Shown here: piece by piece, positions 955 to 63,757 of the stretch
How the letters are laid out: every line of letters starts with the position of its first letter
Numbering within the stretch: position 1 is the stretch's first letter
Assembly (NCBI GenBank): GCA_965228475.1
Contig: OZ245817.1
Coordinates: forward strand, 256,001-320,000
Length of the DNA stretch: 64,000 nucleotides
Source of the DNA: Myxococcota bacterium
GTDB lineage: Bacteria > Myxococcota_A > UBA9160 > JAFDDA01
Direction: 5' to 3'
Position numbers and translations under genes: made by a program
Notes under the pieces: model-generated
Told to the model about the DNA's origin: nothing
What the model saw: the letters and a program-made list of their open reading frames with translations, nothing else
Database searches by the model: none

Positions 955-2402
955 AGATTCCGAAGACCGGCCTTTCGCGAGACGAGATCTTCGAGCGCCT
1001 CGAGCGCTACCGCGAGCACGACACGCCCTGGCGGGAGGGTCGCACCTGGGCCTACGTCTACGACCCGGGCGCCGAGGCGGAGTCCGTGATCAAGGACGCC
1101 TTCTCGAGCTACCTCTCCGAGAACGGCCTCGATCCGACGGCGTTCCCGAGCGCGCTCCAGATCGAGAACGAAGTCATCGCCATGGCGGTCGGCCACCTGA
1201 ACGGCGACGAGAACGTCGTCGGGAGCTTCACGAGCGGTGGCACCGAGAGCCTGATCCTCGCGGTGAAGGCCGCGCGCGACCACGCGCGCGAGAAGCGTCC
1301 CGAGGTGACAACGCCGGAGATGATCCTTCCGGAGACCGCGCACGCCTCGTTCCAGAAGGCGGCCCATTACCTGGGTGTGAAGCCGGTGATCGTGCCCGTC
1401 GACCCGGAGACCTTCCGCGCCGACGTCTCCGCCATCCGCGAAGCCATCACGGACCAGACGGTGCTGCTCGTCGGCTCGGCCATCTCCTATGCCCACGGCG
1501 TGGTCGACCCGATCCCCGAGCTCGGCCAGCTCGCACTCGAGAAGAACCTGCTCCTCCACGTCGACGGCTGCATGGGCGGCTTCATGCTGCAGTACTTCGA
1601 ACGGCTCGGCGGGACGCACCCCCTCTTCGACTTCCGGGTGCCCGGCGTGACGTCGATCTCGATGGACCTGCACAAGTACGCCTTCGCGGCGAAGGGGGCC
1701 TCGGTGATCCTCTACCGCTCGAAGGACCTCCGGAAGTACCAGATGTACGCCTGCTCGAACTGGACGGGCTACACCGTGATCAACCCGACGGTGCAGAGCA
1801 CGAAGTCCGCGGGTCCGGTCGCCGCCTCCTGGGCCGCGCTCAAGTTCATCGGCGACGACGGCTATCTCGAGTTCGCCCGCCAGGTGAAGGACGCGACGGA
1901 GCGCATCGCGAAGGCCGTCGACGAGATTCCGGAGCTGCGCATGCTCGGGGAACCCGAGATGAACCTCGTGGCCTTCACTTCGGAGACGGTGAGCGTCTTC
2001 CACATCGCGGACGAGATGAAGGAGCGCAACTGGTTCGTCCAGCCGCAGCTCGCCTATGGCTGCTCGCCGGAGAACATCCATCTCTCGATCAACCCGGGGA
2101 GCGTCCACTGGGTGGATTCGATGCTCTCGGACCTTCGCGAGAGCATCGAGAAGGCGAAGCTCCTGCCCTCGGGTGAGCTGGCGCCGAAGATCCAGGCGGC
2201 CTTCGGGGATCTCGCGCCCGAGGAGCTCGACGATTCGGTCTTCGAGAACCTGCTCGGGATGGCCGGCGTCTCCGGGACGAGCCTGCCCGGGCGCATGGCC
2301 GAGATCAACGAGGTGCTGAACGCGCTGCCCGTCCCGCTGCGGGAGCGGCTGCTCGTCGAATACCTGAACGTGCTCTACCAGCCGGAGGGCTCGGGTTCGT
2401 GA
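951..2402 (+). CDS. PLP-dependent sphingosine-1-phosphate lyase / group II decarboxylase-like protein
   Basis: Motifs TSGGTESL, LHVDGCMGGF, SISMDLHKY (PLP lysine); RBS AGGAG upstream of ATG 951. Confidence 0.85.
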   Translation: MKIPKTGLSRDEIFERLERYREHDTPWREGRTWAYVYDPGAEAESVIKDAFSSYLSENGLDPTAFPSALQIENEVIAMAVGHLNGDENVVGSFTSGGTESLILAVKAARDHAREKRPEVTTPEMILPETAHASFQKAAHYLGVKPVIVPVDPETFRADVSAIREAITDQTVLLVGSAISYAHGVVDPIPELGQLALEKNLLLHVDGCMGGFMLQYFERLGGTHPLFDFRVPGVTSISMDLHKYAFAAKGASVILYRSKDLRKYQMYACSNWTGYTVINPTVQSTKSAGPVAASWAALKFIGDDGYLEFARQVKDATERIAKAVDEIPELRMLGEPEMNLVAFTSETVSVFHIADEMKERNWFVQPQLAYGCSPENIHLSINPGSVHWVDSMLSDLRESIEKAKLLPSGELAPKIQAAFGDLAPEELDDSVFENLLGMAGVSGTSLPGRMAEINEVLNALPVPLRERLLVEYLNVLYQPEGSGS

Positions 2403-3778
2403 GCGACGACGGGCCCAAGAGCGACGGCGGGCTCGAGGCGCTCGACAAGGCCCACGTCTTCCATCCCTACACGTCGATCGCGCAGCAGCAGGAGCGCGGT
2501 TCCCGGCTCTGGGCAGAGGGCAAAGGCGTCTTCGTGCGCGACGCCGACGGGCGCGAGTACCTCGACGCGATGGCCGGACTCTGGTGCGTGGCGGCGGGCT
2601 ACGGGCGCGAGGAGATCGCCGACGCCATGGCCGAGCAGGCGCGCCGCCTCGCCTACAGCCACGGCTTCCTCGCGAACGCCACGGAGCCGGCGGTGCGGCT
2701 CGCTTCGCGCATCGCCGCGCTGGCGCCGCCGGGGCTCGAGCACGTGTTCTTCTGCAACTCGGGCTCCGAGGCGAACGACACGATCGTGAAGCTCGTCTGG
2801 TACTACTGGAACCTGCGCGGGCGCACCGAGAAGAAGAAGATCATCTCGCGCCATGGCGCCTACCACGGCGTCACCCTCGCGGCGACCAGCCTCTCGGGCC
2901 TCCCCTACATGCATCCGCTGTTCGACGCGCCGATGCCCCGTTTCCTGCACGCGCGAAAGCCGCACCTCTATCGCGAGGGCGTGCCCGGCGAGAGCGAAGC
3001 CGCCTTCGCGGAACGGCTCGTCGACGAACTCGACGCGATGATTCGCGCCGAGGGGCCCGAGACCGTCGGCGCCTTCATCGGCGAACCGCTGATGGGTGCG
3101 GGGGGAGTGATTCCGCCGCCCGAGGGCTACTGGGAGGGCGTGCAGGAGGTGCTTCGCCGGCACGAGGTCCTGCTCGTCGCGGACGAGGTGATCTGCGGCT
3201 TCGGCCGTCTGGGCGTGCCCTTCGGCTCGCAGCGGTACGGGATCGCACCAGACATGATGACCATCGCCAAGGCGGTGACGAGCGCCTACTTCCCCGTGTC
3301 CGGCGCCGTGGTCAGCGATCGGGTCTGGGAGACCTTCGCCAAGGGCTCCGAGGAGCACGGGCCCGTCGCCCACGGGCATACGACGAGCCTCCATCCGGTG
3401 GGCGCGGCGGCCGCCCTCGCGAACCTCGATCTGCTCGAGGGCGAGGGCCTGCTGTCGCGGGCGAAGGACGTCGGCCCGGCCTTCCAGGCAAGGCTGCGCG
3501 AAGCCGTCGCCGGGCATCCCCACGTCGGCGAGGTCCGGGGGGAAGGGTTGATCGCGGCAGTCGAGTTCGTGGCCGACCGGGAGGCTCGCCGGCCCTTCGC
3601 CCCCGAACGCAAGACGGGCCTCCGTTTCCACGAGGCCCTGCTCGAAGAGGGATTGATCTGCCGCGCGCTCGGCGACAGCCTCGCCTTCTGTCCGCCCCTG
3701 GTGGCGAGCGAAGCCGAGCTCGGCGAGGCCGTCTCGCGCTTCGCGCAGGGCCTCGAGCGGTTCGACTTCGACGCTTGA
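2399..3778 (+). CDS. Class III aminotransferase (omega-amine transaminase)
   Basis: YLDAMAGLWC, NSGSEAND, YHG, ADEVICGFGRLG, TIAK, HGHT. Confidence 0.9.
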   Translation: MSDDGPKSDGGLEALDKAHVFHPYTSIAQQQERGSRLWAEGKGVFVRDADGREYLDAMAGLWCVAAGYGREEIADAMAEQARRLAYSHGFLANATEPAVRLASRIAALAPPGLEHVFFCNSGSEANDTIVKLVWYYWNLRGRTEKKKIISRHGAYHGVTLAATSLSGLPYMHPLFDAPMPRFLHARKPHLYREGVPGESEAAFAERLVDELDAMIRAEGPETVGAFIGEPLMGAGGVIPPPEGYWEGVQEVLRRHEVLLVADEVICGFGRLGVPFGSQRYGIAPDMMTIAKAVTSAYFPVSGAVVSDRVWETFAKGSEEHGPVAHGHTTSLHPVGAAAALANLDLLEGEGLLSRAKDVGPAFQARLREAVAGHPHVGEVRGEGLIAAVEFVADREARRPFAPERKTGLRFHEALLEEGLICRALGDSLAFCPPLVASEAELGEAVSRFAQGLERFDFDA

Positions 3779-59168: not shown

Positions 59169-59864
59169 TCAACGAAGATCGGAGAGGCGCACGCGCTGGC
59201 GCCCCTCCGCGTCGAAGTTCTCCGGAGCGAGCCAGGCCTCGAAGCCGTGCCGGAGGGCCGGCCACTCGGCATCGGTGATCGAGAACCACGCCGTGTCGCG
59301 GTTGCGGCCCTTCATGATGACGTGGTTGCGGAAGGTTCCCTCGTAGCGGAAGCCGAGGCGCTCGGCGGCGGCTCGCGACGGCGCGTTGAGCGCATCGCAC
59401 TTCCACTCGTAGCGGCGGTAGCCGAGGTCGTCGAAGGCGTGGCGCATCATCAGGAACATGGCCTCGGTCGCCGCCGGTGTTCGCTGGAGGGCCGGTGCGT
59501 AGGAGAGATGCCCGACCTCGAGGACGCCCATCTCGGGCTCGATGCGGAGGTAGCTCGCCACGCCGACGGGCCGGGCGTCCGTTCCGGTGCAGACGGCGAA
59601 GAAGAGCGGGTCGTCCTTGCCGAGCGTCTGCTCGACGAAGGCTTCGTACTCCGACGCGCTCGGGAAGGGGCCGTAGGGCAGGTAGGTCCAGTTTCTCCCG
59701 TCGTCCTCGGCGTAGGCGGCGTGGAGCGCTTCGGCGTGGGCCGTCGCGAGGGGCTCGAGCCGGCAGAAGCGCCCGGCGTGCACCTGGTGCCGGGGCCGCG
59801 GCCGTGCGGTGAATCCTTCGAGGCTCCTGCCGATGGGCTGACCCCACCGGTTGGTTCGTTCCAT
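59169..59864 (-). CDS. GNAT family (RimJ/RimL-like) N-acetyltransferase
   Basis: WTYLPYGPF, GYRRYEWKCDALNAPSRAAAERLGFRYEG, KGRNRDTAWFSI. Confidence 0.92.
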   Translation of the reverse strand: MERTNRWGQPIGRSLEGFTARPRPRHQVHAGRFCRLEPLATAHAEALHAAYAEDDGRNWTYLPYGPFPSASEYEAFVEQTLGKDDPLFFAVCTGTDARPVGVASYLRIEPEMGVLEVGHLSYAPALQRTPAATEAMFLMMRHAFDDLGYRRYEWKCDALNAPSRAAAERLGFRYEGTFRNHVIMKGRNRDTAWFSITDAEWPALRHGFEAWLAPENFDAEGRQRVRLSDLR

Positions 59865-59989
59865 CCTTCCGTCTCCCCGATCGCGCCCCGGAGCTTACGG
59901 AAGGGTTCGGGCGACGGTGTGGCCTTTCGGTGGAATCCGGCACCTCGGGCCCGCTACTCGCCGGGCGGGAACCTGTGCCATGGTGGGGC

Positions 59990-62491
59990 ATGGCCGCCGG
60001 CGAACGCACAGCGACCCCCGAGACCTACCCCTTCGCCGAGATCGAACCCCTCTGGGAGGAGCGGTGGGAGGCCGCGGATCTCTTCCGCGCCGGCGCGCAC
60101 CCGGATCGGCCGAGCTGGTACGGCTACGAGTACCCGCCCTACCCGAACGGCAGCCTGCACATCGGGCACGCTCGCAACTACACCCTCGGCGACGTCTGCG
60201 CGCGGTTCCACCGCATGCGCGGCTTCGACGTGCTCTACACCCAGGGCTTCGACTCCTTCGGGCTGCCGAACGAGATCGCCGCGCGCGAGGAAGGATGCCA
60301 CCCGCGCGAGGTCACCGAGCGCTCGATCGCCACGATCTCGGACCAGTTCCGCCGGCTCGGCCTCTCCTACGACCGCAGCCACTTCATCGCCTACCACGAC
60401 CCGCACTACTACGTGCAGACCCAGCGGATCTTCCTGGCCCTCCTGGATGCCGATCTCGCCTACCGCGCGCGGGCGGCGGCCAACTGGTGCCCGACGTGCA
60501 GTACGACCCTCGCCGACGACCAGGCCCTCGAGGGGAACTGCTGGCGCTGCGGCCGGCCCGTCGAGACGCGGGTGCTCGACCAATGGTTCCTGCGGACGAC
60601 GCGCTACGCCCAGGCACTGCTCGACGGCCTCGACACCGTCCGCGACTGGCCCGACCACGCCCTCGCCCGCCAGCGTGCGTGGATCGGCCGCACGCCCGGC
60701 GTCGACGTGCGCCTCGAGATCGCCGAGCGCCCCGGCCGGGAGCTCGTCGCCTTCACGACCCAGCCCGAGCTGATCTACGCGATGAACTTTCTCACGCTCG
60801 CGCTCGAGCACCCCTTCCTGCTCGAGCTCGAGGCGGATGGGGCCCTCGCGCAGGGCGTTCTCGACGAGGTCGAGGACATGCGGCGGCAGCTCCGCTTCCG
60901 GGCCCGGAGCGCCCTGCGCGGTGCGCCGCGTCCGCCGACGCGCACGGTGGCCCTCGGTCTCCACGTCGTGCATCCGCTGACGGGCGAGCGCCTGCCGCTC
61001 CTCGCCGGAAACTACGTCGAGATCTCCTTCGCCACGGGCGCGGTGCTCGGCGCGCCCGCCCACGATCACAAGGACGGCGAGGTCGCGCGCCAGGCCGGGA
61101 TCGGCGAACGGGTGACCTTGCGTCCGCCGGACGGCGAAACGACCGGGGATCTCATCGCCTACGAAGAAGACTGGCGGCTCGTCGACGCCGGGGAGCTCAC
61201 GGGCGCGACCGTCGCCGAATCGAGGAGCCGCGTCGCCGAGGCCCTCGCCCGCGTCGACGGAGGCGGCGCGGCGGTGCGCTTCCGTCTGCGCGACTGGCTG
61301 GTTTCGCGCCAGCGCTTCTGGGGCGTTCCGATTCCCATCGTGCACTGCGTGGATTGCGGTGCGGTGCCCGTGCCCGACGGGGAACTTCCCATCGAGCTGC
61401 CCGACGAAGTCGACCTCGAGGTGGCGGGGAACCCGCTCGAAGCCTGTACGGCCTTCGTCGAGGCGCCCTGCCCTCGCTGCGCGGAGCCCGCCCGGCGCGA
61501 GACCGACACCATGGACACCTTCGTCAACACGACCTGGTTCCCCTGGCGCCACTGCATCCCCGCCGACCGCCCCTTCGATCTGCACTGTGCCGAGGTCGAG
61601 GAGCGCATGCCCGCGGACGTGACGATCGGCGGCGTCGACGTGCTCGAAGGTGCCTTCTTCCACGAACGCTTCCTCGCTCAAGCGATGCACGAGCTCGGCT
61701 GGATCGACTACACCGAGCCCGTCCGGCGCGCGCTCACCCACGAGATGGTGATCCGCAACGGTCGGAAGATGAGCAAATCCCTCGGGAATACCGTCGACCT
61801 CGACGACGTGATCGAGCGCTTCGGCGCCGACAGCCTGCGCACCGCGATCGTGTTCATGGCCCCCTGGCAGCGTCGGGTGGACTGGCAGGAGTCGAAGCTC
61901 GTCGATTGCCACCGCTTCCTCGCCGCGGTCTTCGATCTGGCGGAGCGTTTCGCTTCGTCCCTCGAGACGCACCGCGAGCCGCGCGAACGCACGGACGTGC
62001 TGGGCGCGATCCATCGCGAGACCGCGGCGATCACCGAATCCTTCGAGGGCTACCGCATGCACGTCGCCGTCCACGGGCTCATGCGCCTGCGGCGCACCGT
62101 CGAGCGCGCGGCGGAGGAGGGAGCGCGGCCGGATGCCGTGGAAGGCCTGTCCCGGCTGGTGCGCATGCTCTCGCCGCTCGCCCCGCACCTTGCCGAGGAA
62201 CTCTGGCGGCGGCTCGGCGGCGAGGGCTTCGTGAGCGTCGCCGCGTGGCCGGAGGTCGATGCGGCGCTCGCAGCGGAAGAGCGGCGGACCCTCCTCGTCC
62301 AGGTCGACGGCAAGAAGGTGGGTGCGATCGAAGTCTCACCCGATGCGGACGAGGCAGAGCTCGAAGCGCTCGCGCGGCCGATCGCAGAGCCGACACTCCA
62401 GGGTGTCGAGGTGCTGCGCACGATCTACGCCCAGCGCCGGAAGACCGACTGGATCAACTTCGTGACGAAGGCCCGCCGGGGCGGCGATTAG
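59990..62491 (+). CDS. Leucyl-tRNA synthetase paralog (class Ia) with a divergent amino-acid pocket
   Basis: PYPNGSLHIGH (HIGH), CPTC/CWRC Zn knuckle, CP1 editing domain (FTTQPEL, GAPAHDHKD), LRDWLVSRQRFWGVPIP, RETDTMDTF, KMSKS, C-terminal VQVDGK domain. Confidence 0.9.
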   Translation: MAAGERTATPETYPFAEIEPLWEERWEAADLFRAGAHPDRPSWYGYEYPPYPNGSLHIGHARNYTLGDVCARFHRMRGFDVLYTQGFDSFGLPNEIAAREEGCHPREVTERSIATISDQFRRLGLSYDRSHFIAYHDPHYYVQTQRIFLALLDADLAYRARAAANWCPTCSTTLADDQALEGNCWRCGRPVETRVLDQWFLRTTRYAQALLDGLDTVRDWPDHALARQRAWIGRTPGVDVRLEIAERPGRELVAFTTQPELIYAMNFLTLALEHPFLLELEADGALAQGVLDEVEDMRRQLRFRARSALRGAPRPPTRTVALGLHVVHPLTGERLPLLAGNYVEISFATGAVLGAPAHDHKDGEVARQAGIGERVTLRPPDGETTGDLIAYEEDWRLVDAGELTGATVAESRSRVAEALARVDGGGAAVRFRLRDWLVSRQRFWGVPIPIVHCVDCGAVPVPDGELPIELPDEVDLEVAGNPLEACTAFVEAPCPRCAEPARRETDTMDTFVNTTWFPWRHCIPADRPFDLHCAEVEERMPADVTIGGVDVLEGAFFHERFLAQAMHELGWIDYTEPVRRALTHEMVIRNGRKMSKSLGNTVDLDDVIERFGADSLRTAIVFMAPWQRRVDWQESKLVDCHRFLAAVFDLAERFASSLETHREPRERTDVLGAIHRETAAITESFEGYRMHVAVHGLMRLRRTVERAAEEGARPDAVEGLSRLVRMLSPLAPHLAEELWRRLGGEGFVSVAAWPEVDAALAAEERRTLLVQVDGKKVGAIEVSPDADEAELEALARPIAEPTLQGVEVLRTIYAQRRKTDWINFVTKARRGGD

Positions 62492-62502
62492 AGGCCAGGG
62501 GT

Positions 62503-62736
62503 TGGTGCCGAAGACGGGATTCGAACCCGCAGCAACGATCCATTCCGGAGCTTGATCCGAGCGCCGGATTGCAGGCTCTCCCGAGACGCCCTGCACCAGC
62601 GGGATCGACGACGGCCCGGGCTTTCCCGGGAATCTCCCCACGGGGGTAACCAATCCCCGCCTCAAGATTTCGCTCCGTTCAGTACGCCGCACGTGGCCCT
62701 CGACCACGCGTGAAGTTCCTGTTTCACTACTTCGGC
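62503..62736 (-). tRNA. tRNA-Leu(GAG)-like RNA, 234 nt, with a 161-nt structured variable region and C33
   Basis: GCCGAAG/CTTCGGC 7-bp acceptor stem + A-CCA; U8-A9; D arm GTG..GG..CAC; anticodon arm CGTGG-TCGAGGG-CCACG; T arm GCGGG-TTCGAAT-CCCGT. Confidence 0.85.
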
Positions 62737-62744
62737 CCGTCTCG

Positions 62745-62774
62745 ATCGTACGGCCGGGCTCCCGCGCAGGTCAA
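62745..62774 (-). promoter_or_regulatory. sigma70-type promoter of the tRNA-like gene
   Basis: Minus strand TTGACC(62774-62769)-N18-TACGAT(62750-62745), 8 nt before the 5' G. Confidence 0.75.
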
Positions 62775-62888
62775 CCGGAGGGGCTTCCCGGCCTCGGTGC
62801 GGTCCGGTTCGGGCCGGGCTTGATTTAGTCGCTTGATCAAGGATATTGTTCGCCCGACTAAACCCCTCGCGCCCGAGGAGGGCCGCCG

Positions 62889-63350
62889 ATGGCGCCCGAA
62901 TCCCTTCCCTACGCACTCGAAATCTGGGACAACGCCGCCCGCCTGGCGCTCCCCATCTGGCTGAAGGCCTGGCTCGGCTTCCTGGCTCTGAGCTTCCTGG
63001 CCTCGCTGGCCTTTGTCCGCACGGAGCGAACCGCCCGCATCGTCCTCGCGAGCTTCGTGGCGAGCCACCTCGGGCTCGTCGTGCTCGGACTCGCCGGCGT
63101 GACGATCCGCACGGGGCTCGTCTCCCTGGCCCACATCGTCGCCTGGACGCCGGGGCTGATCGCCCTCCTGCGAACGATCCCGAAGACCGAGAGCGGCTCG
63201 CGCTTCGGCCTCTGGTGCCGGACGGTGGCCGCGGTCATCGTCGTCGCCTTCGTCTTCGATCTGCGCGACGCCGGCTCCTATCTCTATCACCACGCGGTCG
63301 GCCATCCGGTGCTCGAGGCCGGCGCGGCGGGCGAAGGGAGCGACGCATGA
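62889..63350 (+). CDS. Hypothetical 4-TM membrane protein
   Basis: RBS GAGGAGG; hydrophobic segments; AHIVAWTP, FVFDLRD. Confidence 0.7.
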   Translation: MAPESLPYALEIWDNAARLALPIWLKAWLGFLALSFLASLAFVRTERTARIVLASFVASHLGLVVLGLAGVTIRTGLVSLAHIVAWTPGLIALLRTIPKTESGSRFGLWCRTVAAVIVVAFVFDLRDAGSYLYHHAVGHPVLEAGAAGEGSDA

Positions 63351-63757
63351 ACCGCCGCCGAACCTCGCCTGCGCTGATCCTCACTGCCCTCCTGGCCGCG
63401 GGCTGCGGCGGGCCGATCCTCGTCTTCCCGGGCGGAGAACTCTCGGGGGAGGTCGTCGACGAGCCCGTCGAGGATTGGTCCTTCGTGACGTCGACCTTCA
63501 TCGATCTCGAGACCCGGCCGGGCGACCCCTACTCCGTCGAGCTCAACTACGTGGTGAAGGACGGCAAGCTCTACATCGACCCGGCAGAGGGGAAGCGCTG
63601 GCTCGAACACATCCGCGCGGATCCGCGCGTGCGCGCCCGCTTCGACGGGAAGATCTATCCGCTCGAAGCCATCCTCGTCGGCAAGCCCGGGGAGCTTCCG
63701 GGCTTCGACGCGGACCGCTTCATCTACCGGCTGGATCCGCGCTCGCCAGCCGGCTGA
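63347..63757 (+). CDS. Small lipoprotein, DUF2255/split-barrel-like
   Basis: AAG-CGGP lipobox, PGGELSG, LETRPGDPYSV; paralog of 46666-47118. Confidence 0.7.
   Translation: MNRRRTSPALILTALLAAGCGGPILVFPGGELSGEVVDEPVEDWSFVTSTFIDLETRPGDPYSVELNYVVKDGKLYIDPAEGKRWLEHIRADPRVRARFDGKIYPLEAILVGKPGELPGFDADRFIYRLDPRSPAG

What the first reader, a model, noticed from the sequence alone, without database searches (positions are those of the whole stretch)
62503..62736. 234-nt tRNA with a 161-nt multi-hairpin domain placed exactly in the variable-arm position
Seen (minus strand): after the anticodon stem comes U, then GCGGCG (62690-62685), which can pair with CGUUGC (62537-62532) one nt before the T stem, so the insert is closed like a class II variable arm. 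Inside are several stems: AAUCUU/GAGAUU enclosing CGGGG..CCCCG; CCCGGG-AAAG-CCCGGG; UGCAGG/CCUGCA enclosing UCUC-GG-GAGA; UCCGG.GCU/AGC.CCGGA; ACGG/CCGU; and CGAUCC/GGAUCG, which partly competes with the closing stem. Known: class II variable regions are normally only about 10-25 nt, and bacterial group I tRNA introns sit in the anticodon loop. Inference: a retained RNA domain (protein docking, ribosome interaction or switch) or a new kind of excised intervening sequence. Standard tRNA finders would probably miss or truncate it.
Basis: partly seen in the sequence, partly recalled or inferred. Interest (0 to 1): 0.92.

Follow-up and report, generated by a model that had tools for sequence, protein, structure and literature searches.

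The report
Giant-armed leucine tRNA with own synthetase
A 234-base RNA built like a leucine tRNA, but carrying a 161-base folded domain where the small extra arm should be, sits beside a rare second leucine-charging enzyme; the same pairing recurs in distant bacteria and may feed amino acids into specialised chemistry instead of ordinary protein synthesis.

Summary
Window 62503-62736 (-) is a complete tRNA-Leu(GAG)-type cloverleaf with encoded CCA and a helix-closed 161-nt insert exactly in the variable-arm position. ARAGORN and Rfam miss it. It is single-copy and has a promoter-like site. LeuRS2 is found in 0 of 60 same-order relatives, and its nearest relatives are about 40% identical. One of them, in an Actinomycetota MAG, lies in an operon-like row behind a second tRNA-Leu(GAG)-like RNA with a 222-nt insert at the same position. 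The two cores differ by 4 compensatory pair changes, with no broken pair. More distant LeuRS2-like genes in two other phyla lie near homologous tRNA-likes with about 120 nt inside the D loop. Contigs from three RNA-labelled libraries cover the insert unspliced. Best reading (about 0.55): a dedicated LeuRS2/tRNA pair kept apart from housekeeping translation, probably supplying an activated amino acid to specialised metabolism. Charging and function are untested. I found no paper describing it.

The parts
62503..62736 (-). tRNA* : 234-nt tRNA-Leu(GAG)-like RNA with encoded CCA
   Evidence: Sequence parse; fold; RNA-library contigs 62505-62719, 62507-62718 and 62515-62722
62531..62691 (-). 161-nt structured insert in the variable-arm position (RNA 46-206), closed by GCGGCG/CGUUGC (RNA 47-52 with 200-205)
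   Evidence: The four natural substitutions in a marine metagenome contig all fall here
62692..62708 (-). anticodon arm CGUGG-UCGAGGG-CCACG; GAG at 62699-62701; C at canonical position 33
   Evidence: The own canonical tRNA-Leu(GAG) loop is UUGAGGG
62710..62727 (-). D arm GUGA-AACAGGAACU-UCAC (A14, A15, G18G19 equivalents)
62514..62530 (-). T arm GCGGG-UUCGAAU-CCCGU
62745..62774 (-). sigma-70-like promoter TTGACC-18 nt-TACGAT, ending 9 nt before the tRNA* 5' end
   Evidence: 1 site found against 0.0 expected in 50 shuffles. Both hexamers are unchanged in the variant contig
59930..62491 (+). LeuRS2: divergent second leucyl-tRNA synthetase (853-aa ORF; database form 833 aa from ATG 59990), convergent with tRNA*, stop codon 12 nt from its 3' end
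   Evidence: Pfam and NCBIfam TIGR00396 635 bits against cut-off 548; HIGH and KMSKS motifs present; the housekeeping LeuRS lies elsewhere
59169..59864 (-). GNAT (Acetyltransf_3) gene divergent from LeuRS2; link to the pair not shown
   Evidence: A homologue in the same-genus genome lies on another contig without LeuRS2

Best explanation
The element is a real gene for a stable RNA, called tRNA* here. It descends from tRNA-Leu, keeps a full cloverleaf and a CCA end, and carries a 161-nt folded domain in place of the class II variable arm. It is the partner of LeuRS2, a deep-branching second leucyl-tRNA synthetase encoded beside it. Inferred mechanism: LeuRS2 charges tRNA*, which retains A73, A14, A15 with U48, and G18G19. 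By my recall, these are the E. coli tRNA-Leu identity elements. The bulky domain at the hinge of the L shape keeps the charged RNA apart from the housekeeping pool and/or serves as a handle for a partner enzyme. The aminoacyl group (leucine or an analogue) is then used in specialised metabolism (peptide or amide formation), not in bulk translation. Shown: the anatomy, the pairing with LeuRS2 in two phyla, selection on the core structure, and presence of the unspliced RNA in RNA libraries. Inferred: charging by LeuRS2, insulation from translation, and the metabolic use.
For: (1) Anatomy, promoter-like site and single copy. (2) The genome already has canonical tRNA-Leu taa, tag, caa, gag and cag, plus tRNA-Sec and tmRNA, so tRNA* is supernumerary. 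(3) LeuRS2 lies 12 nt away. The genome also has a housekeeping LeuRS scoring 1083 bits against 626 for LeuRS2. 0 of 60 same-order relatives has a second LeuRS match. (4) The best database relatives are about 40% identical and share signature changes: GFDSFGLPNEI where other LeuRS have GWDAFGLPAEN, and TT[QT]PEL where others have TTRPDT. The signature occurs in 5 of 269 retrieved LeuRS. A tree of 29 rows separates 9 LeuRS2-type rows from 20 canonical rows with 100/98 support. (5) In the MAG locus L075 a 291-nt tRNA-Leu(GAG)-like RNA with a 222-nt insert at the same position lies 1.6 kb upstream of the LeuRS2 homologue. That genome also has a canonical LeuRS and all five canonical tRNA-Leu. (6) Of the 21 core pairs in the two tRNA*, 16 are identical, 4 changed on both sides, 1 changed on one side, and 0 are broken. 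The two cores are each other's best match (56/71), against 59-73% identity to 10 canonical tRNA-Leu of the two hosts. (7) LeuRS2-like genes in a Vulcanimicrobiota MAG and an Alphaproteobacteria MAG have homologous 191- and 194-nt tRNA-likes 5.4 and 1.7 kb downstream, with a domain inside the D loop. In my structure 76 of 76 cells pair, 6 pairs changed on both sides, and slid controls pair at 32-44%. (8) Contexts: a radical SAM/SPASM peptide maturase and a repeat peptide (L075); a SARP regulator, AurF, methyltransferases and an aminotransferase (G062); a PPTase, an AMP-ligase and a GNAT fusion (G063). (9) One contig of 208-215 nt in each of three RNA-labelled libraries covers the insert and both tRNA sides.
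Against: No aminoacylation data exist. There are only two V-arm-type instances. Their inserts share no detectable sequence similarity (local score 19 against shuffles 19.2 +/- 3.1), and the fold of the second is not better than shuffles (z -1.3). A natural variant (A63C) breaks a helix of the predicted fold, so the interior structure is unresolved. In this window the pair is convergent, not in an operon, and no clear biosynthetic genes are tied to it. The flanking genes are scattered over other contigs in the same-genus genome, and only LeuRS2 is shared with the L075 locus. GAG is kept in both while neighbouring loop bases changed, which hints at decoding or at recognition I cannot explain. 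In one genome (G063) no canonical LeuRS was found. The RNA evidence comes from assembled contigs, one library is RNA only by guess, and DNA carry-over cannot be formally excluded.
Confidence: 0.55

Rival explanations
1. Self-resistance module. LeuRS2 is an inhibitor-insensitive copy protecting a producer or neighbour from a LeuRS-targeting compound. tRNA* is a substrate or decoy adapted to it.
For: LeuRS2-like genes sit in cluster-like contexts, where resistant synthetase copies are known (recalled: agrocin 84 AgnB2; the review PMC8323819 was seen in a search listing only). An Acetyltransf_3 GNAT lies beside LeuRS2. By recall, the RimL/MccE type detoxifies aminoacyl-nucleotide analogues. The editing-site motif is altered, TTQPEL for TTRPDT.
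Against: By my recall, resistance copies need no tRNA of their own. Here an expanded tRNA-like accompanies 4 of 5 LeuRS2-clade loci. The GNAT is native to the genus and not linked to LeuRS2 in the same-genus genome.
Confidence: 0.15
2. Ribosomal role. tRNA* enters the ribosome as a special CUC/CUU decoder or a tmRNA-like device, with the big domain leaving the ribosome along the path of a long variable arm.
For: GAG is conserved while loop positions 33, 37 and 38 differ between the two tRNA*. In tmRNA, helix H2 mimics a long variable arm and leads the rest of the RNA out toward the 30S beak (PMC3968760, passages read).
Against: C at position 33 here and C at position 37 in the MAG copy depart from U33 and purine-37, which are near-universal (recalled). 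The D-loop placement in the related type does not fit the tmRNA path. Canonical tRNA-Leu(GAG) exists in both hosts. I saw no tag-like reading frame, but the search was not systematic.
Confidence: 0.12
3. Regulator or tRNA mimic. An uncharged or charged decoy that titrates or controls LeuRS2, or acts as antisense to its 3' end.
For: The arrangement is convergent, with 12 nt between the LeuRS2 stop codon and the tRNA* 3' end. tRNA mimics that regulate synthetases are known (recalled).
Against: Orientation and spacing are not conserved: upstream on the same strand in L075, and 1.7-5.4 kb downstream in the D-loop type. A full identity set and a CCA end are kept.
Confidence: 0.08
4. Decaying tRNA-Leu gene hit by a junk insertion, or a tRNA with a new kind of excised intron.
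For: The inserts are unrelated in sequence. The insert changes at about the rate of neighbouring DNA in a related strain: 4 of 161 nt, against 19 of 992 in the LeuRS2 3' part.
Against: There are 4 compensatory changes and 0 broken pairs in the core across phyla, and 0 changes in the 73-nt core in the related strain. There is a promoter-like site. The insert is present in RNA-library contigs and no joint was listed. There is no Rfam intron match, and the element is single-copy.
Confidence: 0.07

Closest known systems
Bacterial class II tRNA-Leu
   Same: 7-bp acceptor stem, A73, D loop with GG, Leu anticodon GAG, variable region closed by a helix between the anticodon and T arms, UUCGA T loop, encoded CCA.
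   Different: The variable region is 161 nt (222 nt in the MAG copy), against 13-16 nt by my count in this genome's own tRNA-Leu genes (sequences). C is at position 33. The D arm departs from the GUGGCGGAAUUGGUAGACGC type of all 10 host tRNA-Leu. It is missed by ARAGORN and the Rfam tRNA model.
tmRNA (SsrA)
   Same: A stable RNA of a few hundred nt with a tRNA-like acceptor/T-arm module and CCA end. Its large extra domain leaves the tRNA-like part where a long variable arm would (PMC3968760, passages).
   Different: tRNA* keeps complete D and anticodon arms and Leu-type features. By recall, tmRNA has Ala identity. The genome's real tmRNA is at G000:C1:2975624-2975989. ARAGORN's tmRNA search finds nothing here.
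Cluster-encoded dedicated synthetases and tRNA-dependent steps in natural-product pathways (SbzA/SbzC in SB-203208; recalled: VlmL SerRS in valanimycin; pylS/pylT)
   Same: A synthetase paralogue encoded with pathway genes. tRNA-synthetase-like and GNAT enzymes catalyse aminoacyl transfers in SB-203208 biosynthesis (PMC6331615, abstract read).
   Different: By my recall, those systems use ordinary tRNAs, or a small unusual one (tRNA-Pyl). None is reported with a 100-220-nt domain grafted on the tRNA. The review of non-canonical tRNAs gives class II arms as more than 10 nt and describes no giant ones in the passages I read (PMC7609411).
Group I introns in bacterial tRNA genes
   Same: A structured insert of a few hundred nt inside a tRNA gene.
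   Different: By recall, those sit in the anticodon loop and are spliced out. This insert is in the variable-arm position, matches no Rfam intron and is present in RNA-library contigs.

Membership tests
tRNA-Leu (bacterial class II) | Cloverleaf with 7-bp acceptor stem, 5-bp T stem with UUCRA loop, and D loop with GG | tested here: met
tRNA-Leu (bacterial class II) | Discriminator A73 and a Leu anticodon | tested here: met
   A at RNA 231, GAG at RNA 36-38
tRNA-Leu (bacterial class II) | 7-nt anticodon loop with U33 and purine 37 | tested here: not met
   The loop is UCGAGGG: C at position 33, G at 37. The MAG copy has U33 but C37.
tRNA-Leu (bacterial class II) | Variable arm of about 10-25 nt | tested here: not met
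   161 nt. The host tRNA-Leu genes total 84-88 nt in length.
tRNA-Leu (bacterial class II) | Recognised by tRNA models | tested here: not met
   ARAGORN 0 genes; Rfam RF00005 no match even at E up to 10
tRNA-Leu (bacterial class II) | Charged with leucine and used in translation | not testable with these tools
   No aminoacylation or ribosome data
tmRNA | tRNA-like domain without an anticodon arm, plus a tag reading frame | tested here: not met
   A full anticodon arm is present. ARAGORN's tmRNA search is negative here and positive elsewhere in the genome.
Group I intron in a tRNA gene | Match to the group I intron model; located in the anticodon loop; spliced out | tested here: not met
   No Rfam match. 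The insert is in the variable-arm position. It is present in RNA-library contigs and no joint was listed. Contigs cannot exclude a minor spliced form.
MITE / IS remnant | Many copies in the genome | tested here: not met
   1 full match in the 5.0-Mb genome, and only a 25-nt chance-level match elsewhere
Leucyl-tRNA synthetase, bacterial type (for LeuRS2) | TIGR00396 score above cut-off; HIGH and KMSKS motifs; CP1 editing domain; C-terminal tRNA-binding domain | tested here: met
   635 bits against 548; motifs present; domains found; aligned to T. thermophilus LeuRS over residues 15-815. The editing motif is altered: TTQPEL for TTRPDT.

The most novel reading that the evidence does not exclude
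LeuRS2 and tRNA* are a natural orthogonal synthetase/tRNA pair. A 100-220-nt RNA domain grafted onto the tRNA hinge (variable arm in one lineage, D loop in another) acts as a built-in adaptor. It bars the charged tRNA from normal translation and hands its amino acid to pathway enzymes, or, like tmRNA, lets it act on the ribosome in a special way. That would define a new class of expanded tRNAs spread by gene transfer across at least four phyla.
Probability: 0.4. Interest if true: 0.92.

Novelty: new variant of a known kind. Interest (0 to 1): 0.86.

Why it matters
Known tRNAs are described with variable regions of tens of nucleotides at most. An expressed tRNA with a structured domain twice its own size, tied to its own deep-branching synthetase, would extend what a tRNA can be. 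It would also point to an unrecognised route by which activated amino acids leave translation for specialised chemistry. It could offer a naturally insulated LeuRS/tRNA pair for genetic-code engineering. It also shows that standard tRNA finders and Rfam are blind to such genes, so more may be hidden in genomes. The claim is directly testable with one charging assay and one northern blot.

Tried and rejected
- **Rfam:** searches at gathering score and at E up to 10 gave nothing usable.
- **BLAST of the 234-nt element in 60 same-order relatives:** only 25-45-nt pieces matched. Of the 17 loci brought in by 3'-end matches, 12 are tRNA-Leu(CAA), 1 tRNA-Leu(TAG), 2 tRNA-Gly(TCC), and 2 had no call.
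- **Relatives of the other hosts:** 80 relatives of the MAG G061 and 100 relatives of G063 have no expanded tRNA-like.
- **Collection scans with LeuRS2 alone:** genome contigs and metagenome contigs gave nothing.
- **Scans with the 5-sequence alignment:** metagenome contigs and viral contigs gave nothing.
- **tblastn against plasmids:** best hit 38.5% identity, all annotated as ordinary leuS or unannotated.
- **Motif hits set aside:** three (L079-L081, Dermacoccaceae) are housekeeping leuS by context (rpsT, holA, comEA), and I did not count them as LeuRS2.
- **3' pattern search in G061-G065:** only ordinary tRNAs besides L075.
- **G064:** the contig ends inside the LeuRS2-like gene, and BLAST found no tRNA-like in the assembly.
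- **Insert-to-insert local alignments:** only the two D-loop-type inserts are alike (31 against 17.2 +/- 2.7). All other pairs are at shuffle level.
- **Second long candidate:** the other long candidate from my own-genome scan (G000:C1:3852225-3852513) lies inside a long reading frame and lacks D and anticodon arms, so it is chance.
- **RNA runs X5-X7:** they show no cover outside 62505-62722 within 61500-63400. Since the DNA contig of X4 runs on and no loose ends were listed, this is at most a weak hint of discrete RNA ends.
- **Literature searches:** no paper on a LeuRS paralogue with its own tRNA or on tRNAs with giant arms. Only the held library was searched.
- **Earlier scan notes:** nothing on this place.

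Full report
**What is there**

Read on the minus strand, window 62736-62503 is a complete tRNA frame. It has these parts:
- Acceptor GCCGAAG/CUUCGGC, discriminator A, and an encoded CCA.
- U8, and a D arm GUGA-AACAGGAACU-UCAC.
- An anticodon arm CGUGG-UCGAGGG-CCACG.
- A T arm GCGGG-UUCGAAU-CCCGU.

The minimum-free-energy fold of the 234 nt keeps the cloverleaf and closes the insert as a multi-hairpin domain. Its energy is -109.6 kcal/mol, z = -2.47, and 2 of 200 shuffles fold as well.

The anticodon loop resembles that of this genome's own tRNA-Leu(GAG): UCGAGGG here against UUGAGGG there. The difference is a C at position 33.

ARAGORN finds no tRNA or tmRNA in the window. Rfam gives nothing at gathering score. 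At E up to 10 it gives only a 17-bit tRNA-Sec match.

A sigma-70-like site, TTGACC-18-TACGAT, ends 9 nt upstream of the 5' end. One such site was found where shuffles give 0.0.

**It is not a repeat, and it is not needed for decoding**

The element has one copy in its 5.0-Mb genome.

My own scan for a T arm plus acceptor complement within 400 nt gave 137 rows. The only long rows with CCA that do not belong to an ARAGORN-called tRNA or to the tmRNA are this element and one chance hit inside a reading frame.

The genome has canonical tRNA-Leu taa, tag, caa, gag and cag, a tRNA-Sec, and a tmRNA elsewhere.

**The neighbour**

The gene converging on the element (59930-62491, +) stops 12 nt from its 3' end. 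It is a bacterial-type leucyl-tRNA synthetase:
- It scores 635 bits on TIGR00396 against a cut-off of 548.
- The HIGH and KMSKS motifs, the editing domain and the C-terminal domain are all present.

The genome has another LeuRS that scores 1083 bits and is 36% identical.

Each of the same-order relatives with a match (58 of 60) has one LeuRS match. None has a LeuRS2-like copy. The same-genus genome (89% complete) lacks it, and the flanking genes lie on other contigs there.

Among the proteins searched, the closest are only about 40% identical. Four of them (P0002-P0005) share with LeuRS2 a set of changes in otherwise near-invariant LeuRS motifs:
- EYPPYP.
- GFDSFGLPNEI, where other LeuRS have GWDAFGLPAEN.
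- TT[QT]PEL, where others have TTRPDT.
- FVN..WF.

A profile of these five, run against 1.84 billion representatives, puts P0002 at 1566 bits and the next protein at 901 bits. The full signature occurs in 5 of the 269 LeuRS I held. Two more, P0150 and P0168, carry a related form.

A tree of 29 rows splits 9 LeuRS2-type rows from 20 canonical rows with 100/98 support. Two rows have long branches, and the root is unknown.

In the T. thermophilus numbering that I read from the alignment, the last T of TTRPDT is T252, and LeuRS2 has Leu there. By recall, this threonine shapes the editing pocket, and bulky replacements block editing.

**A second pair**

A motif scan of one genome per species found 7 loci. 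Three are housekeeping leuS by context.

In L075 (an Actinomycetota MAG, the contig of P0002) my scan found a 291-nt element at 1025-1315. It has:
- Acceptor GCCGUAG/CUACGGC and A73.
- A D loop AACGGUCAG.
- An anticodon arm CGUGA-UUGAGCA-UCACG, which again carries GAG.
- 222 nt at the variable-arm position.
- The same T arm.

The row of same-strand genes that follows is:
- A strong ribosome-binding site and a 47-aa peptide with PAIGT repeats.
- A radical SAM/SPASM peptide maturase.
- The LeuRS2 homologue, overlapping the maturase gene's end.

That genome also has a canonical LeuRS (1049 bits) and canonical tRNA-Leu taa, cag, caa, gag and tag.

Across the 21 core pairs of the two RNAs, 16 are identical, 4 changed on both sides, 1 changed on one side, and none is broken. 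The two cores are each other's best match (56 of 71). Identity to the 10 canonical tRNA-Leu of the two hosts is 59-73%.

This argues for common descent with LeuRS2 and for selection on the tRNA fold. It argues against two independent accidents.

The inserts themselves are not detectably similar.

**A related type**

More distant LeuRS2-like genes in a Vulcanimicrobiota MAG (G062) and an Alphaproteobacteria MAG (G063) have 191- and 194-nt RNAs on the same strand, 5.4 kb and 1.7 kb downstream. The two RNAs are homologous, with 80% column identity. Each has:
- Acceptor GCACCUG/CAGGUGC and an encoded CCA.
- An anticodon loop with UGG.
- A 5-nt variable loop.
- A D stem GCUU/AAGC that encloses about 120 nt inside the D loop.

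On my structure 76 of 76 cells pair and 6 pairs changed on both sides. Slid controls pair at 32-44%.

So 4 of 5 LeuRS2-clade loci have an expanded tRNA-like within 6 kb. The fifth contig ends inside the gene.

The contexts look like specialised metabolism:
- G062 has a SARP regulator, methyltransferases, AurF and an aminotransferase.
- G063 has a PPTase, an AMP-ligase and a luciferase-like/GNAT fusion.

In G063 no canonical LeuRS was found.

**RNA evidence and natural variation**

Of 11 listed runs, three RNA-labelled ones were laid: two metatranscriptomes and one that is RNA only by guess, from three studies. Each holds a single contig:
- X5: 62505-62719.
- X6: 62507-62718.
- X7: 62515-62722.

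These correspond to RNA positions 15-232. They include the whole insert, and no joint was listed. This shows the unspliced form in RNA libraries. Contigs cannot rule out a rarer spliced form or DNA carry-over.

A marine metagenome contig covers all 1.9 kb with 42 differences. Their distribution is:
- 0 in the 73-nt tRNA core.
- 4 in the insert.
- Both promoter hexamers intact.

One insert change turns a U-G pair into C-G in the helix 68-73/101-106. Another (A63C) breaks a helix of the predicted fold. The interior fold is therefore unsettled.

**How it most likely works**

What is shown:
- A conserved tRNA-Leu-derived core with an intact CCA end.
- An obligatory-looking partnership with a rare LeuRS lineage.
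- Supernumerary status in two hosts.
- Presence of the insert in RNA.

What is inferred:
- LeuRS2 charges tRNA*.
- The grafted domain sits at the hinge, where by recall the C-terminal domain of bacterial LeuRS touches the tRNA. There it insulates the RNA from housekeeping use and/or docks a partner.
- The aminoacyl group feeds a pathway.

Precedents exist for cluster-encoded aminoacyl transfer by a synthetase-like enzyme and a GNAT enzyme (PMC6331615, abstract). Because tmRNA's helix H2 takes the path of a long variable arm out of the ribosome (PMC3968760, passages), a ribosomal role for the variable-arm type cannot be dismissed. The conserved GAG keeps that rival alive.

**Novelty**

Five literature searches and the passages I read of a review of non-canonical tRNAs (PMC7609411) gave no description of such tRNAs or of this LeuRS lineage with its own tRNA. 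Only the held library was searched.

**Limits**

- There are only two variable-arm-type sequences, so no real covariation test of the insert is possible.
- There are no charging data.
- Contigs for P0003-P0005, P0150 and P0168 could not be fetched.

Noticed in passing
L099:18597-18787 (+) and L077:7992-8185 (+): Homologous 191- and 194-nt tRNA-likes (anticodon UGG, CCA encoded) with a covarying domain of about 120 nt inside the D loop. They lie downstream of LeuRS2-like genes in two phyla. ARAGORN miscalls one of them as an 80-nt tRNA-Pro.
   Followed up: partly
G000:C1:4920484-4920573 (-), outside the window: ARAGORN calls this tRNA-Leu(caa). Its acceptor stem, G73, T arm and D arm are those of this genome's tRNA-Ser genes, so it is a Ser-type body with a Leu (UUG) anticodon.
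   Followed up: no
L075:1352-1495 (+) and 1509-2969 (+): A 47-aa peptide with four to five PAIGT repeats, behind a strong ribosome-binding site, followed by a radical SAM/SPASM maturase (best NCBIfam match PapB-like, 135 bits, below cut-off). Probably an undescribed RiPP pair.
   Followed up: partly
L088 (G062:C258:8598-11394): An array of 18 tRNA genes on one strand within 2 kb in the Vulcanimicrobiota MAG.
   Followed up: no
L099:18834-19265 (+): A 143-aa Pro/Ala-rich reading frame with a strong ribosome-binding site, right after the D-loop-type tRNA-like (anticodon UGG = Pro). It has no Pfam family, and its coding status is doubtful.
   Followed up: no
G000:C1, several places outside the window (for example 1296662-1296753, 3967154-3967250, 4610675-4610766): ARAGORN lists several 85-97-nt 'tRNA-Arg/Gly/Ala' genes and three with 4-base anticodons. 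These may be false positives of a 70% G+C genome or odd tRNAs. Not examined.
   Followed up: no
window 59930-62491 (+), residues FTTQPEL: The whole LeuRS2 clade replaces the editing-site motif TTRPDT by TTxPEL (T252 to Leu in T. thermophilus numbering). This suggests altered or lost proofreading.
   Followed up: partly
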